Shown piece after piece: positions 14,196-49,032 of a stretch of 64,000 nucleotides of DNA. The translations under genes were made by a program, and so were the position numbers. How positions within the stretch are numbered: position 1 is the first letter of the stretch; each line of letters begins with the position of its first letter. Source of the DNA: Eledone cirrhosa (lineage: Eukaryota); the NCBI GenBank assembly GCA_964016885.1, contig OZ024743.1, forward strand, positions 288,734,001-288,798,000, given 5' to 3'. A model generated the notes under the pieces. It did no database searches. It worked only from the letters and a program-made list of their open reading frames with translations, and had not been told where the DNA came from.

Positions 14196-15299
14196 CATCT
14201 CTATCAATCTAACCATCCAGTTAAATAGCCAGCCGACCAACCAGTGAACTAACCTCTGATAAGTTTATACATCTATTACACACCTACTCCTCCTTCCACG
14301 GCTCTGTATTTACTCTGCCTTCAACTTATTTTATATACTCTCCCCACCCTTCTCCCTTTCCTTTCTTACCCTCCTTTACTACTCACTGGCACTCTTTTAG
14401 TCTTTCTCCCTATCCCGTCTCTCCTCAAATCTTCCTTTTTCTATTTACTTCCTTTCACTCACCCCTTTCTATGTCCATTGCTATCTATTTATTTTATCTC
14501 TTGCATTCTCTCTCGTTCTTCTCTTTGTCTCAGAAAATTATTTTGTCATATATCCTCATCCACACTATCTATTAATCTATCTATCTATTAATCTATCTAT
14601 CTATCTATCTATCTATCTATCTATCTATCTATCTATCTATCTATCTATCTATCTATCTATCTGTCTGTCTATATGTCTGTCTGTCTCTCTCTCTATCTAT
14701 CTACCTGTTATCTATCTATCTATCTGCTATCTATCTCTCAATCTGTCTATCTACATGTGGCAAATAAAAAAAAATCTATCTATCTATCAGTCTATCTACC
14801 TATCTATATATCTACCTATCTATCTCTATATATATGTTTTTTATATTTGTCACTCTCCTTCACTTTGATGTTCCTGTCATTCCCTCTTTCTTATTCTCAT
14901 TATATCTGTTTTATCCTCCTTTCTCTCTGTTCCTCTTCTCTTCTCACTCCCCTCAAATACAAACTCACTTAATCATTTTCCTTTTTTGTTACAATTTTTT
15001 ACATTAATTTTATCAACCTCTCTTTCCATCTTTCTTTTCTGCACCCTCTCTACCTCTACCTCTTAGGACTCCCACTTCCTCACCCTCTCTCCTTCTTTTC
15101 TAACCTTTCTATCACACACACCACGTTCTCTCTCTGAATAACTCTTACTCCACTCTCTTTTTTTTCATTGCTCCCCGCTTTACATCTTCACCCATTTCTT
15201 CAATATCTATCTTAGATTTTAATAAACAGATTGGTCACTGTAATTTGTATAAGAATGCATCTTCTGAAAATTTACATTAATTCATTCATACTGCATTAC

Positions 15300-17340
15300 A
15301 AAGCGGTTTTGAATAATTGAAAACGTAATATGATACCATTTAAAATAGGAATACTCTTTCAGTCTCGCTATGAGAAGTAAATAACGAGGTTACACCCCAG
15401 GTTTTATCTCCCCTAAAGTAGAAAATATTGGCTCTTCATCTGTAAATGAAAACTCATTTTCTGTGCAAGGAGAGATATAGCAACTTATACATATTTAAGA
15501 AAAAGCACGTGGCTTAGTGATTAGGGTTCCCGTCGGTATCTTGAAATCTTGACATGACAAATAGATGTACCTGAAATTCAAAAGAGCATCTACTGCGTCA
15601 ATCCGAATAACCCTGATATTTATCAAAGGATGCACGTGTTTGTGGAATTCTCATCTACTAGCAATTTAATTTCACAAGCAGGTTTTTATGTTCTATCGGA
15701 ATACTCTTAGCCAAAAGCGACGGAGATCCAACAACATAGATATTTATAGTGAAATTTGCATAAACAGGGGATGAATATTATGCTAATAAGCTTTTTAGGA
15801 GTCACCGTTTGGTTTTTACACAAACAATTTCAACCAGACTATGCAGAGTAAGCAAAGTGGTTGCACTAGATGATTTTATCACTCTGCGTGTACAAAGATT
15901 GGGATTGTTGGGACAATCTTCAAACAGTCTCGGATTTTCATCAGAAAATGGATTTTCATTTTCTGTCAACTACTATATGTATATACACGGGGAGGAGATG
16001 GGCTTTGCAAGGTTTTAAAAAAGGCCCTAGAAGGGTATATTTCAATACGATGCGCCTACGACTCCTGCAGGAGTTACGGGACCATGCATGAATATGTATA
16101 TGTGTGTGTGTGTGTATATATATATATATATATATATATATTACATTGTCAACTGCTTTAACTTCAAATATATATTCGGTCTCATTCACTGGAACCATAA
16201 CGTACAAAGAAGAGTAAATCCCACAAGTGTTTCTAAACTATGTCCCCAACCTTCGTGGCAAACAACCGTTAACCTGCACCAATTTCTGAAATGGAGATGC
16301 CGGATGTCATTAGACTACAACTAACTCTTTGTCTTTTCTCTCTATCTATCTACAGGTATATATATGAAAATCCGTATGTGTTTGAGGTCTGAGAGAAAAG
16401 AGTATTAAATACCGAAGTAGTGTTTTAATATTCATTTTATTTAGGCTAAATAGTGAGTTTTTTACTCTGGATTTTTGCCTGTTTATCACATATATATGTC
16501 TGTGTGTCTGTTGTTATGGAAATACGGCTATATTCCAGTTTTAATTTCTATATTTGAATCTTATATTTTCTAAACTAAGATCTGTAAATTTCCTTTGGTA
16601 CAACATATTTCCTAGATACATAATTCATTCAACGGTCTAAAGATAACGATCAATTTAAAATTCAAAATTCGGTTGAAGGATTATACAATGATGGGCGAAG
16701 TAAGAACTACATACAACTAAATACAATGCATATAAGTATGAAAATTAGGCAGTAAAAATTAAAACTCCATATTTTGAGAACACAAGTCACTGGAATCATT
16801 GACAATACTATAGGCCTTGAACTATACAGGGTGATTAGAAAGTTAGAAGTTAGACCTGTATTCAACAACAGAAATCAGGTATAAAAAGAGTTATATATAA
16901 TTAATATATAATTATATATAATTAAATATTAAATAACTGGATCTACCAACTCATAATATTATAATATTATATTATAACATTAAATCATTAAAAAATTTTA
17001 AAACTACAAGTGAAGTCATTCTTTTCCTTTTTTTCAAATATATATATATATATATACACCTCTTCATTATAATCCTTCCCCTCACCTATCACACATACCA
17101 AAACATTCTTTCTAGTAAAACCACCAATCAAAAGGAACTTTATCTGACTTCCATAAATGAATGTGAATCGTTATATACTTTTTCTATGCCTTAAGAAGTT
17201 CATTCTATCATTAATTACCGCAGCGGAGGTCCGACGAGCTTTTGATTCCAGACTCGGGCTAGATCGCTACAGATCAAACCTTGAGCTGATCAATAGCGAA
17301 ACGCGCGTCACTACTCAATAAACGTAATGAAGACATAACA
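15300..17340 (+). pseudogene. Highly decayed Penelope-like element (RT relic plus 3' pLTR), interrupted by a SINE at ~15505-15735
   Basis: Frameshifted PLE RT motifs in the expected order: PRFYL-PKV (~15396-15424), ENGFSFSVNYYMYIHGEEMG (~15944-16003), NLHQFLK..NSLSFL (~16270-16340), KLEVRPVF (~16840-16863). It ends in an HHR-like motif and an inverted tail copy (17306-17340 / 17366-17400). Confidence 0.55.
17228..17312 (+). ncRNA. Hammerhead-like motif, variant core CCGACGA
   Basis: Stem II GCTTTTGAT/ATCAATAGC with a long insert, GAAA, palindromic stem III ACGCGCGT, triplet GUC. Stem I is short and the core has U4>C. Confidence 0.55.
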
Positions 17341-17400
17341 TATCTTCCTTTTTATTATTATTATTTGTTATGTCTTCATTACGTTTATTGAATAGTGATG

Positions 17401-17761
17401 CCCCCAGTACATTTGCTAAAAGGGGAATGAATGTGGTGAGAATGGCCCGTGAGAATGGGCCTACTCTGACGATGCGCCTATAGGCTAGCTAACTTGAGGA
17501 GAGGGGTGCTCTCCCTGGGTTCCCTAGAAGCGCAGGGTGGTTCAGGATTGGTGGGGTACCTGAGTCACCCCTGGGTTGTCCACCGCCTATAGGGTAATTT
17601 ATTTTGTTATATTTATGCATAGTTTATTTTATATTTTTATATCTTCATTGTTAAATTAGTCTTGCCATTTTGCACTTTTACTCGACTTTATGGTATACCC
17701 CCATTGTCCCTGTCTTTGTATTGTCCCCTACATGTCGGCCCTTGTGGCTAATAAATGAAAT
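17401..17761 (+). mobile_element. 5'-truncated L1/Tx1-like retrotransposon 3' end
   Basis: 17403-17483 encodes PSTFAKRGMNVVRMARENGPTLTMRL*, homologous to the C-terminus encoded at 38643-38730. The 3' end CCCTTGTGGCTAATAAATGAAA is followed by TCATCA(TTA)n. Confidence 0.7.
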
Positions 17762-17795
17762 CATCATTATTATTATTATTATTATTATTATTATT

Positions 17796-46920: not shown

Positions 46921-47422
46921 GGAGAATCTATCGCACCCTCTCTCTTTGTTTCGTGGCTTAATTCCTTGTTTTCTTATTCGTTTTATTCTTTCCCTTTCCT
47001 TTGTTTCCCTATTGGTATGTATACTGAACAGTTTTCATAATATTTTCTGTATTCTTTTTGTTGTATTATTGAACATAATCTCTTTGTTACTGTATAACAT
47101 TTTCTCCTTTTATGTGCAATTTGTTCTATACGCCAACGGCGCGGGGTTAGGGTATTGGACTTACGATCATAATGTCCTAGGTTCGATACTTGGACTGGGA
47201 TGTGTGCTGTGTTCTTGAGCAAAACACTTAATTTCGCATTGCTCCAATGTACCTCTAAAAATGATTACTGGTGTCCAGATGGCGTTGGGGGTCTTGTATT
47301 TTCAGTCATCAGTACCACCACCACCACCACCACCACACTAGTACCACACCTGCCACTGCCACTACTCTATAATACATCTCTTTCACTAGCAACACCACCA
47401 CCAGCACTAACACTTTGCATTG

Positions 47423-47605
47423 TGGATTGGCAGTATCGGTAGAGTCGGACGCCATGCTTTCCAGCATAGTTACGTCCCTTTACGGTCTGAGTTCAAATCC
47501 GGCCGAGGTTTACTTTGCCTTTCATCCTTACTGGGTCGATAAAATAAAGTACCAGTAATGCACTGGATAATTGCTGGCCTTGTGCCTAAAGTAGAAACAA
47601 TTATT
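47423..47605 (+). mobile_element. tRNA-derived SINE, near full length
   Basis: TGGATTGGCAGTATCGGTAGAG...GAGTTCAAATCC...GTAGAAACAATTATT. Confidence 0.92.
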
Positions 47606-48900
47606 ACACGATATATATCACCACCGCCACTATTTCTCCTGTATTACATCTCCTACTACCGCTACTTCCTATGTATAACATTTCCCACGACCAGTTCTTC
47701 CTATGTATTACAGCATTTCCCACCACTATCGCCAACACAAAACATCACCACCGCCGTATTACAGCATTTCACACCACTATCGCCAACACCAACATCACCA
47801 CCGCCACCACTTCTCCTGTATTACAATATTTCCCACCACAGCTCCATGGTCTGTGAATTCCTGCTAGAGTAGTTAACGTGCCTCCATGATACTCGGCATG
47901 TCTTGGACATTTGAAACAAGGCAGACCCCATCACTCTGCAGGTCAGAATACAGTCGAATTCTCCCAGAGAAAGAGAGAGAAAACGATGAAAAACGAAAAT
48001 CCCACCTCAACAGGATTTGAACTAAGAGTGCGGAGAGCTGAAACGTATATTGTGAAGCATTCTATCCAACGTACCGCCTCTCGTCTTACTACTGCTGCAT
48101 TACAGCCGTGTTACATCTCCCACTACCACCTTGTCTATATTATATATATCCTACCACCACATTGTCTATATTCCATCTGTTACCACTACTAAAATATCAA
48201 CCCCCTACTACTTCCACAGTTATTCATTTATCACCCAGCACTCCCACATTAAACACCCTCTCCTTCGTTCTACATTCTATTGCTCTCTCCTACTACGACC
48301 CTTTTAGTATTTCATCGCTCTCTATGTATCTGAAACCACTCCTCATACTTTATTCAAACTGCATCTTTAATATAAACTCCTCCCACTTTAATCATTTCGC
48401 CGTCTCTCTGGTTACATTCATTTCAATAAATAAATTCATCCAATAAATATATTCTCCAGTTCCCTATTATTAGATTATTAGTTTTTACCTTCTTCCCTCT
48501 TTCAACTTCTCACTAGGTCTCTCACTCCCTCTCTTATTCCCTATTGCAGAGCTATCCGTTGAGCCAGACAGTCTGTCTATCTATCGATCTAGCTAGCTAT
48601 CTGCCCACATCTCTCTCTCTCTCTCTCTCTCTCTCTCTCTCTCTCTCTCTCTCTCTCTCTCTCTCTCTCTCTCTCTCTCTCTCTCTCTCTTCTCTCTCTC
48701 TCTCTCCCTCTATCTATCTCTCCCGCTCTTCTATATATATATATATATGCTTATCTCTCTCTCTCTCTCTCTCTCTCTCTCTCCTCTCTCTCTCTCTCTC
48801 TCTCTCTCTCTCTCTCTCTCTCTCTCTCTCTCTCTCTCTCTCTCTCTATCTATCTATCTCTATCTATCTATCTACCCACCTATCTATCTATCTATCTATC

Positions 48901-49032
48901 TTCCCCCCTATTGGGGATTTCGATTGTTATAATTGTTTGTTTCAATATTTTTACACGATTGTATGTAAAATCCCCGACATGTCTCTTTGTATTGTCCCCT
49001 TTTCTTGTGCGCCCTTGTGGCAAATAAAGAAA
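48901..49032 (+). mobile_element. Short 3'-end copy of the L1/Tx1-like family in (CTAT)n
   Basis: CTTTGTATTGTCCCC...GCCCTTGTGGCAAATAAAGAAA with (CTAT)n on both sides. Confidence 0.75.

What the first reader, a model, noticed from the sequence alone, without database searches (positions are those of the whole stretch)
14755..49032. L1/Tx1-like family inserted three times into (CTAT)n in the same strand orientation
Seen: the 3' end (T/A)GTGGCAAATAAA..AAA followed by (TCTA)n occurs at 38381-38891 (-, 511 bp), 48901-49032 (+, 132 bp) and 14755-14774 (+, ~20 bp). Each has (CTAT)n on its sense strand on both sides. Established: some Tx1-clade families are microsatellite-specific (Kibi for TC repeats, Koshi for TTC repeats). 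Inference: this is a GATA-repeat-targeting retrotransposon, a specificity I do not recognise as described. The clade assignment rests only on the C-terminal peptide.
Basis: partly seen in the sequence, partly recalled or inferred. Interest (0 to 1): 0.7.

Follow-up and report, generated by a model that had tools for sequence, protein, structure and literature searches.

The report
Young LINE targeting GATA microsatellites
A young jumping gene of the L1/Tx1 kind, with over 11,000 copy ends in what is likely an octopus-type genome, sits mostly inside (CTAT)n/(GATA)n repeats in one fixed orientation and register, likely because its enzyme nicks the GATA strand, and it likely arose from sister families that sit in (ATT)n, which would allow a direct test of how such elements switch targets.

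Summary
Confirmed and extended. The three pieces are real 3' ends of an L1/Tx1-group LINE lineage, but they come from at least two sister families. The 38.4-kb copy belongs to a very young family: 5.72 kb full length, intact APE-RT ORF2, 1,926 exact 3' ends. In 47 5'-truncated copies sampled without regard to flanks, 29 have sense (CTAT)n at the 5' junction and 0 have the opposite strand; the background is 0.3%. Target-site duplications of about 12-20 nt start with TAT. Genome-wide, 11,363 lineage ends are followed by sense (CTAT)n and 3 by the reverse. Specificity is strong but leaky: about 12% of ends sit at TATAT, and a few in unique sequence. A sister lineage, one copy of which lies at window 17394-17762, sits in (ATT)n; the RT tree nests the CTAT clade among ATT families (AU p=0.004). 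Microsatellite-targeting Tx1 families are known (TC, TTC, TTCC/TTTC); eight paper searches showed no GATA target. Tx1-clade membership itself was not testable. This scan has noted the same family four times before, twice in this genome.

The parts
38379..38893 (-). 5'-truncated copy of the young CTAT-targeting family A: last 82 codons of ORF2, 3' UTR, AATAAA, no poly(A), two element-derived terminal bases
   Evidence: 99.8% to full-length L043 over 513 nt; 1 mismatch to 28 of the 29 other loci fetched, the other being mis-anchored by my script; terminal bases linked to internal SNPs
38894..38933 (-). (CTAT)n on the element's 5' side (target DNA; duplication not separable because periodic)
38355..38378 (-). 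(TATC)6 on the element's 3' side, starting with TAT in the family-wide register
   Evidence: register shared by 59 of 59 sampled copies
48901..49034 (+). 5'-truncated 3' UTR piece of an older CTAT-targeting sister family
   Evidence: 91-93% to copies in L137, L139, L007; about 80% to family A over the last 47 nt
48846..48899 (+). (CTAT)n 5' flank of copy 2
49035..49089 (+). (TATC)n 3' flank of copy 2
14757..14776 (+). minimal (about 20 nt) insert of the lineage's 3' end inside a degenerate (CTAT)n array; family not assignable
   Evidence: about 80 like loci genome-wide
14565..14825 (+). degenerate (CTAT)n array, 66.5 units, 77% matches, hosting copy 3
17394..17762 (+).
   Evidence: 94% to genomic relatives; 841 exact 37-nt 3' ends
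17763..17795 (+). (ATT)n 3' flank of the family B copy

Best explanation
These are 5'-truncated copies of a young L1/Tx1-group LINE lineage whose copies sit mostly inside (CTAT)n in one orientation and register, likely because its APE endonuclease nicks the (GATA)n strand at about 5'-AGATA/GATAG-3' and primes reverse transcription there. Shown: full-length 5.72-kb elements with ORF1 (one CCHC knuckle) and an intact APE-RT-zinc finger ORF2; no poly(A) tail; every sampled 3' end is followed, after two element bases, by TAT-x-T; target-site duplications of about 12-20 nt begin at that TAT; copies pile up head to tail in the same repeat. Inferred: the freed 3'-OH ending in AGATA probably pairs with a few read-through bases of the RNA and primes TPRT; the second strand is cut 12-20 nt downstream; the C is preferred but not required, so abundant (TA)n takes about an eighth of insertions. 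Inferred from the RT tree: CTAT targeting arose once from (ATT)n-targeting ancestors, likely through changes in endonuclease surface loops.
For: Anatomy. Youth: more than 100 of the 150 scored APE hits lie in a 1153-codon open frame; median pairwise difference 0.6-1.6% within 3'-end classes. Targeting: 5' flank sense CTAT in 29 of 47 truncated copies, TA 7, other 11, antisense 0; background CTAT 63 and TA 1,477 of 20,000 random 30-mers; Fisher p 5e-58. Positions 1-3 and 5 after the end are T,A,T and T in 59 of 59; position 4 is C 46, A 13. Non-periodic duplications in 22 of 68 truncated copies versus 128 of 4,556 mismatched pairs. Orientation: 11,363 versus 3. (CTAT)n is 0.058% and (AT)n 3.7% of 200 kb random DNA. 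15 of 59 copies lie directly behind another lineage 3' end. Switch: CTAT clade 100/99, sister to ATT family B, with another ATT group outside; ATT monophyly rejected, p-AU 0.004. 28 fixed APE differences between 6 CTAT and 7 ATT copies; the hairpin-tip residue aligned to L1 Pro197 is Ser in 6 of 6 CTAT copies and Ile/Met in the 6 ATT copies that keep the loop; that hairpin enters the minor groove in L1-EN (PMC8565326, passages).
Against: 18 of 47 truncated copies lack a CTAT run of 8 nt or more at the 5' junction, and 21 of 68 show no exact duplication of 9 nt or more. 241 family A ends are followed by TATAT, about 12% of the 1,926 (prefixes differ by 5 nt). At L039 the 3' junction carries TATA that the host minisatellite lacks, so some 3' repeat is element-supplied. 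No empty allele was seen. No biochemical test. Elements are mosaic (5' halves swapped between subfamilies), so the RT tree may not track the endonuclease. The AU group was tested after a first tree had been seen.
Confidence: 0.8

Rival explanations
1. Target choice is made mainly by RNA-DNA pairing: read-through transcripts end in (CUAU)n and only nicks with a complementary AGATA end are primed, while the endonuclease is only loosely AT-specific.
For: No poly(A) tail; invariant TAT-x-T register; L039 shows element-supplied bases at the 3' junction, and full-length copies can carry 5' (CTAT)n absent from the host unit; (TA)n and unique TATAT sites are accepted.
Against: At unique targets (L094, L100, L122, L130, L132) no CTAT units were added at the 3' junction, which argues against a long repeat tail primed in any register. 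The ATT/CTAT split goes with 28 fixed APE differences. Endonuclease specificity is the accepted main determinant for Tx1 elements (PMC4494074 passage). The two mechanisms may act together.
Confidence: 0.2
2. The repeat is only an element-encoded tail; copies insert at random and 5' repeats arise from nesting behind earlier copies or from template switching.
For: 15 of 59 sampled copies follow another lineage 3' end within 200 nt; some copies have a long 3' (CTAT)n without a matching 5' run (L102, L139).
Against: 29 of 47 truncated copies have 5' CTAT, more than the 15 of 59 nested cases; duplications that run from the repeat into unique sequence (L033, L032, L050, L103, L124) show the motif pre-existed; unique-target copies have no tail. 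Nesting in one orientation is itself what targeting predicts.
Confidence: 0.04
3. Insertion is broad, and copies merely survive better in microsatellites (passive accumulation).
For: Passive accumulation was proposed for Drosophila Waldo-A/B (PMC3812793 passage).
Against: Copies are under about 2% diverged, so there has been little time for sorting; selection would not fix strand (11,363 versus 3) or register (59 of 59), nor favour a repeat 64 times rarer than (AT)n.
Confidence: 0.01

Closest known systems
Kibi (TC)n and Koshi (TTC)n, Tx1 clade, teleost fish (PMC4494074 and PMC3812793, passages)
   Same: APE-type non-LTR retrotransposons of the L1/Tx1 group inserted specifically into a microsatellite
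   Different: Targets are pure pyrimidine repeats in fish; here the target is (CTAT)n/(GATA)n, with (ATT)n sisters, in a likely octopod. Kinship to Kibi/Koshi was not tested.
Crocodilian Tx1 families on (TTCC)n/(TTTC)n (PMC4494074, section 15)
   Same: Tetranucleotide microsatellite preference in Tx1 families; the paper's threshold for 'target specific' is over 20% of flanks, met here at 62%
   Different: Different repeat and host group
Dong (TAA)n, Waldo (ACAY), Mino (AC), Togen (TG)n (PMC3812793, PMC4640811, passages)
   Same: Microsatellite-specific non-LTR elements; Dong shares the (TAA)n/(ATT)n target with the sister families found here
   Different: Other clades: Waldo and Mino R1, Togen NeSL-related, Dong R4 (the R1 and R4 placements are recalled); none is listed with a GATA target
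Human L1 ORF2p (PDB 8sxt and kin)
   Same: APE-RT-zinc finger layout, E 2e-48; hairpin between the anchors aligned to T192 and S202 has the same length
   Different: L1 has a poly(A) tail and a loose TTTT/AA target; this element has no poly(A), a CCHC-type ORF1 and a microsatellite target
L1-Tx1 families counted in cephalopod repeat annotations (PMC13282606, PMC8967140, passages)
   Same: Recently active L1-Tx1 families are reported in Octopus vulgaris (13 families, 421 insertions)
   Different: The word 'target' does not occur in the main text of PMC13282606; the passages seen give no insertion specificity. Supplements were not read.

Membership tests
L1 group of APE-type non-LTR retrotransposons | ORF2 with N-terminal APE, RT and C-terminal zinc-binding motif, closer to L1 than to R2-type RTs | tested here: met
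   Pfam Exo_endo_phos, RVT_1, zf-RVT (zf-RVT below its cut-off); L1 ORF2p E 2e-48 versus R2 proteins E 3e-19
L1 group of APE-type non-LTR retrotransposons | Two ORFs, frequent 5' truncation, target-site duplications (TPRT marks) | tested here: met
   Open frames of 593 and 1153 codons; 47 of 59 sampled copies truncated; duplications of about 12-20 nt
Tx1 clade | RT phylogeny groups with named Tx1 elements (Tx1L, Keno, Kibi, Koshi) | not testable with these tools
   No named Tx1 sequence came back from homology searches or cluster look-up; nearest named hits are hypothetical proteins of Argonauta hians (67% over RT) and of turtles and a fish (about 37-43%)
Tx1 clade | ORF1 of the zinc-knuckle (CCHC/RRM) type rather than Transposase_22 | tested here: inconclusive
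   One C-x2-C-x4-H-x4-C motif, Pfam zf-CCHC E 0.051, below cut-off; no Transposase_22 hit. PMC5203782 (passage) calls such ORF1s consistent with Tx1, but they are not exclusive to it
Microsatellite-specific non-LTR retrotransposon (working kind) | Same repeat in over 20% of flanks (criterion of PMC4494074) | tested here: met
   5' side 29 of 47 truncated copies, 3' side 38 of 59 copies
Microsatellite-specific non-LTR retrotransposon (working kind) | Endonuclease nicks the repeat specifically in vitro | not testable with these tools
   Bench test needed
Kibi / Koshi / crocodilian TTCC-TTTC families | Target is (TC)n, (TTC)n or (TTCC/TTTC)n | tested here: not met
   All 59 sampled ends begin TAT-x-T

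The most novel reading that the evidence does not exclude
An undescribed, recently active Tx1-like lineage whose endonuclease switched from (TAA)n to (GATA)n within octopods, with both states present as thousands of copies and over 100 intact ORF2 genes in one genome; a few loop residues (hairpin tip, loop near L1 Lys70) set the target, giving a natural pair for decoding and reprogramming APE endonuclease specificity.
Probability: 0.4. Interest if true: 0.68.

Novelty: new variant of a known kind. Interest (0 to 1): 0.5.

Why it matters
How APE endonucleases of LINEs come to recognise microsatellites is not well understood (stated in PMC3812793, passage). Here two close sister groups, about 60% identical in APE and 75-80% in RT, use different repeats in one genome, and the CTAT group has many intact young copies. 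That makes the basis of a target switch testable by domain or loop swaps. It also adds GATA to the list of targeted repeats, and it warns that GATA microsatellite markers in such genomes may often adjoin transposon ends.

Tried and rejected
Empty alleles: reads or contigs of four public runs laid on window 38340-39200 covered only the element, never the flanks; one run laid no reads; no test. No RNA holder listed. Single-sequence structure prediction of the APE domain failed, mean pLDDT 32, so no fold search was run. The protein Atlas gave no answer. Idea that the CT-ending subfamily, which often carries a different ORF1/APE half, prefers (TA)n: 7 of 18 in my sample, but only 25 of the first 100 genome-wide TATAT ends are CT-type, against 18 of 59 overall (counted by eye); rejected. 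Search for a third target: of 336 ends with C or G at the first target position, the 100 listed are nearly all mutated ATT or CTAT tails; this sees only families sharing that 3' motif. The hit at 61131 is not of this lineage. Full-length copies were left out of the 5'-flank test because they may carry upstream repeat from read-through. Dropped rows: L131 (duplicate of L130), and two of the first 62 listed ends that lie inside locus L103. Kojima and Fujiwara 2004 and Christensen 2000 are not held; the supplement and Fig. 3 target labels of PMC4494074 could not be seen and may list further targets; Repbase and Dfam entries could not be searched.
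Full report
Observation. The three pieces are present as described, each with (CTAT)n on its sense strand on both sides. The shared 12-nt core gives 6 hits with up to one mismatch against 0.42 expected. The window lies in a 3.0-Gb animal genome. The nearest named relative of the RT is an Argonauta hians protein at 67%, so the host is likely an octopod; this is an inference.

What the element is. Copy 1 (38379-38893, minus) matched 40 scored places at about 100% identity. 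Longer copies give a full-length element of about 5.72 kb with open frames of 593 and 1153 codons. ORF2 has APE, RT and a C-terminal zinc-binding motif; ORF1 has one weak CCHC knuckle. The best solved relative is human L1 ORF2p (E 2e-48), far above R2 proteins. There is no poly(A): AATAAA is followed by a few bases and then the repeat. The exact 31-nt 3' end occurs 1,926 times. Over 100 of 150 scored APE hits lie in a 1153-codon open frame, and copies differ by 0.6-1.6%. Copy 2 belongs to an older sister family (91-93% to L137, L139, L007; about 80% to family A). Copy 3 is a minimal insert of a kind seen at about 80 other loci.

Tail or target. I fetched 60 of the first 62 exact 3' ends on contig C1, chosen without regard to flanks, and dropped one duplicate. 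Of 59, 12 are full length and 47 truncated. In the truncated copies the 30 nt before the 5' junction hold a sense CTAT run of 8 nt or more in 29, a TA run in 7, neither in 11, and an antisense run in 0. Random 30-mers from 200 kb of the genome gave 63 CTAT and 1,477 TA of 20,000 (Fisher p 5e-58). From 5' flanks alone this is roughly a 100-fold preference for CTAT over TA per site. After two terminal bases that track internal SNPs and so belong to the element, all 59 ends continue T-A-T-x-T, with x = C in 46 and A in 13. Among 68 truncated copies (47 unbiased plus 21 from top-hit loci, one of them the window copy), 22 have a non-periodic exact duplication, 25 a purely periodic one, and 21 none; mismatched pairs gave 128 of 4,556. 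About a dozen duplications run into clearly unique sequence; these are about 12-20 nt and begin with TAT, so the motif was in the target. Copies in unique or minisatellite targets (L094, L100, L122, L130, L132) gained no CTAT units. Genome-wide, the lineage motif is followed by sense (CTAT)n 11,363 times and by the reverse 3 times. 241 family A ends go into TATAT, about 12%; my C1 sample was richer in these (13 of 59). 15 of 59 copies sit right behind another lineage end, forming same-orientation chains.

Mechanism. By the usual TPRT geometry (established for L1), the left edge of the duplication marks the first nick. That puts it on the GATA strand at about 5'-AGATA/GATAG-3', with up to 2 nt of uncertainty from microhomology; the second cut is 12-20 nt downstream. 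That the APE domain sets this is inferred from known Tx1 biology (PMC4494074, passage). A few read-through RNA bases may help by pairing: at L039 the junction holds bases that the host unit lacks, and some full-length copies carry 5' (CTAT)n not found in the host unit. These steps are inferred, not shown.

A sister lineage with another target. Window 17394-17762 is a truncated copy of family B, followed by (ATT)n. It has 841 exact 37-nt ends; ATT-tailed lineage ends number 7,212 on one strand, and the other strand's count is inflated by overlapping matches. In 20 unselected B copies, 19 have 3' ATT and 7 have 5' ATT by automatic call, against 117 of 10,000 background; of 16 junctions re-read by eye, 9 show ATT, one of them full length. 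B is older (about 92-96% between copies), so its test is weaker. In the RT tree the CTAT families form one clade (100/99), sister to B (joint node 98/98), with a further ATT group outside. A reduced tree rejects ATT monophyly, p-AU 0.004. So CTAT targeting likely derives from ATT targeting. Caveats: the group was tested after a first tree was seen, and family A subfamilies have swapped 5' halves. APE domains of the two groups are about 60% identical, with 28 fixed differences in 6 versus 7 copies. By the alignment to L1, three lie in the loop just before L1 Lys70. The hairpin tip aligned to Pro197 is Ser against Ile/Met. Both regions contact DNA in the L1-EN structure (PMC8565326, passages), and the hairpin affects selectivity in grafts (PMC1950540, passages). 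These are candidates only.

Comparison and novelty. Microsatellite-specific Tx1 families are known: Kibi (TC), Koshi (TTC), and crocodilian families on TTCC/TTTC (PMC4494074, passages and section 15). Other clades target ACAY, AC, TAA and TG (PMC3812793, PMC4640811, passages). Active L1-Tx1 families are counted in Octopus vulgaris with no target stated in the passages seen (PMC13282606; PMC8967140). Eight searches showed no GATA/CTAT target; most hits I saw only as listings. Repbase, Dfam, Kojima and Fujiwara 2004 and the figure and supplement of PMC4494074 were out of reach and may hold one. It works like Kibi/Koshi; it is a member of the L1 group; membership of the Tx1 clade proper is likely but untested. 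Four earlier unreviewed notes of this scan, two from this genome, report the same family and one the ATT sister; I read them after reaching this reading, and they are not independent support. Verdict: real, a new target variant of a known kind, interest 0.5.

Noticed in passing
window 17394-17795 (+): Truncated copy of a sister LINE family that sits in (ATT)n; the basis for the target-switch reading.
   Followed up: yes
L091, L108, L114, L137, L086, L122: Mosaic elements: the 3' half is 98-100% family A, while 5' UTR/ORF1 is about 65-75% and APE 85-92% identical, i.e. 5' halves were swapped between subfamilies.
   Followed up: partly
L039, L038, L044/L045 5' ends: Full-length copies mostly begin with (CTAT)n then CTCT; at L039 the repeat is absent from the host minisatellite, suggesting transcription starts in upstream repeat or in an upstream copy's tail.
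   Followed up: partly
L134 5' junction: The 5' flank is a near-perfect inverted repeat around a (TA)n core, possibly a fold-back made during insertion.
   Followed up: no
L130-L132 (G000:C1:108.72-108.83 Mb), L039, L023/L047, L094, L100: Several copies entered minisatellite arrays at a TATAT or TCTAT step; neighbouring units act as empty-site controls.
   Followed up: partly
L052, L063, L064, L065, L067, L080, L163 3' flanks: Family B copies often sit just upstream of the same short repeat with a tRNA-like start (SINE-like; the likeness is recalled), preceded by (ATT)n.
   Followed up: no
window 61131-61142 (-): Exact match to the 12-nt core with no repeat tail and no lineage homology upstream; part of the upstream stretch matches two other loci at 76-84%, so another old repeat.
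   Followed up: partly
window 17796-18681 (+): A 272-bp unit in about two copies, each next to an (ATT)n run, directly after the family B copy.
   Followed up: no
runs X1-X12: Near-identical element words occur in runs labelled as nine different organisms; only three of these runs were laid, and they cover the element but not the flanks. Related species, diet or cross-contamination cannot be told apart.
   Followed up: partly
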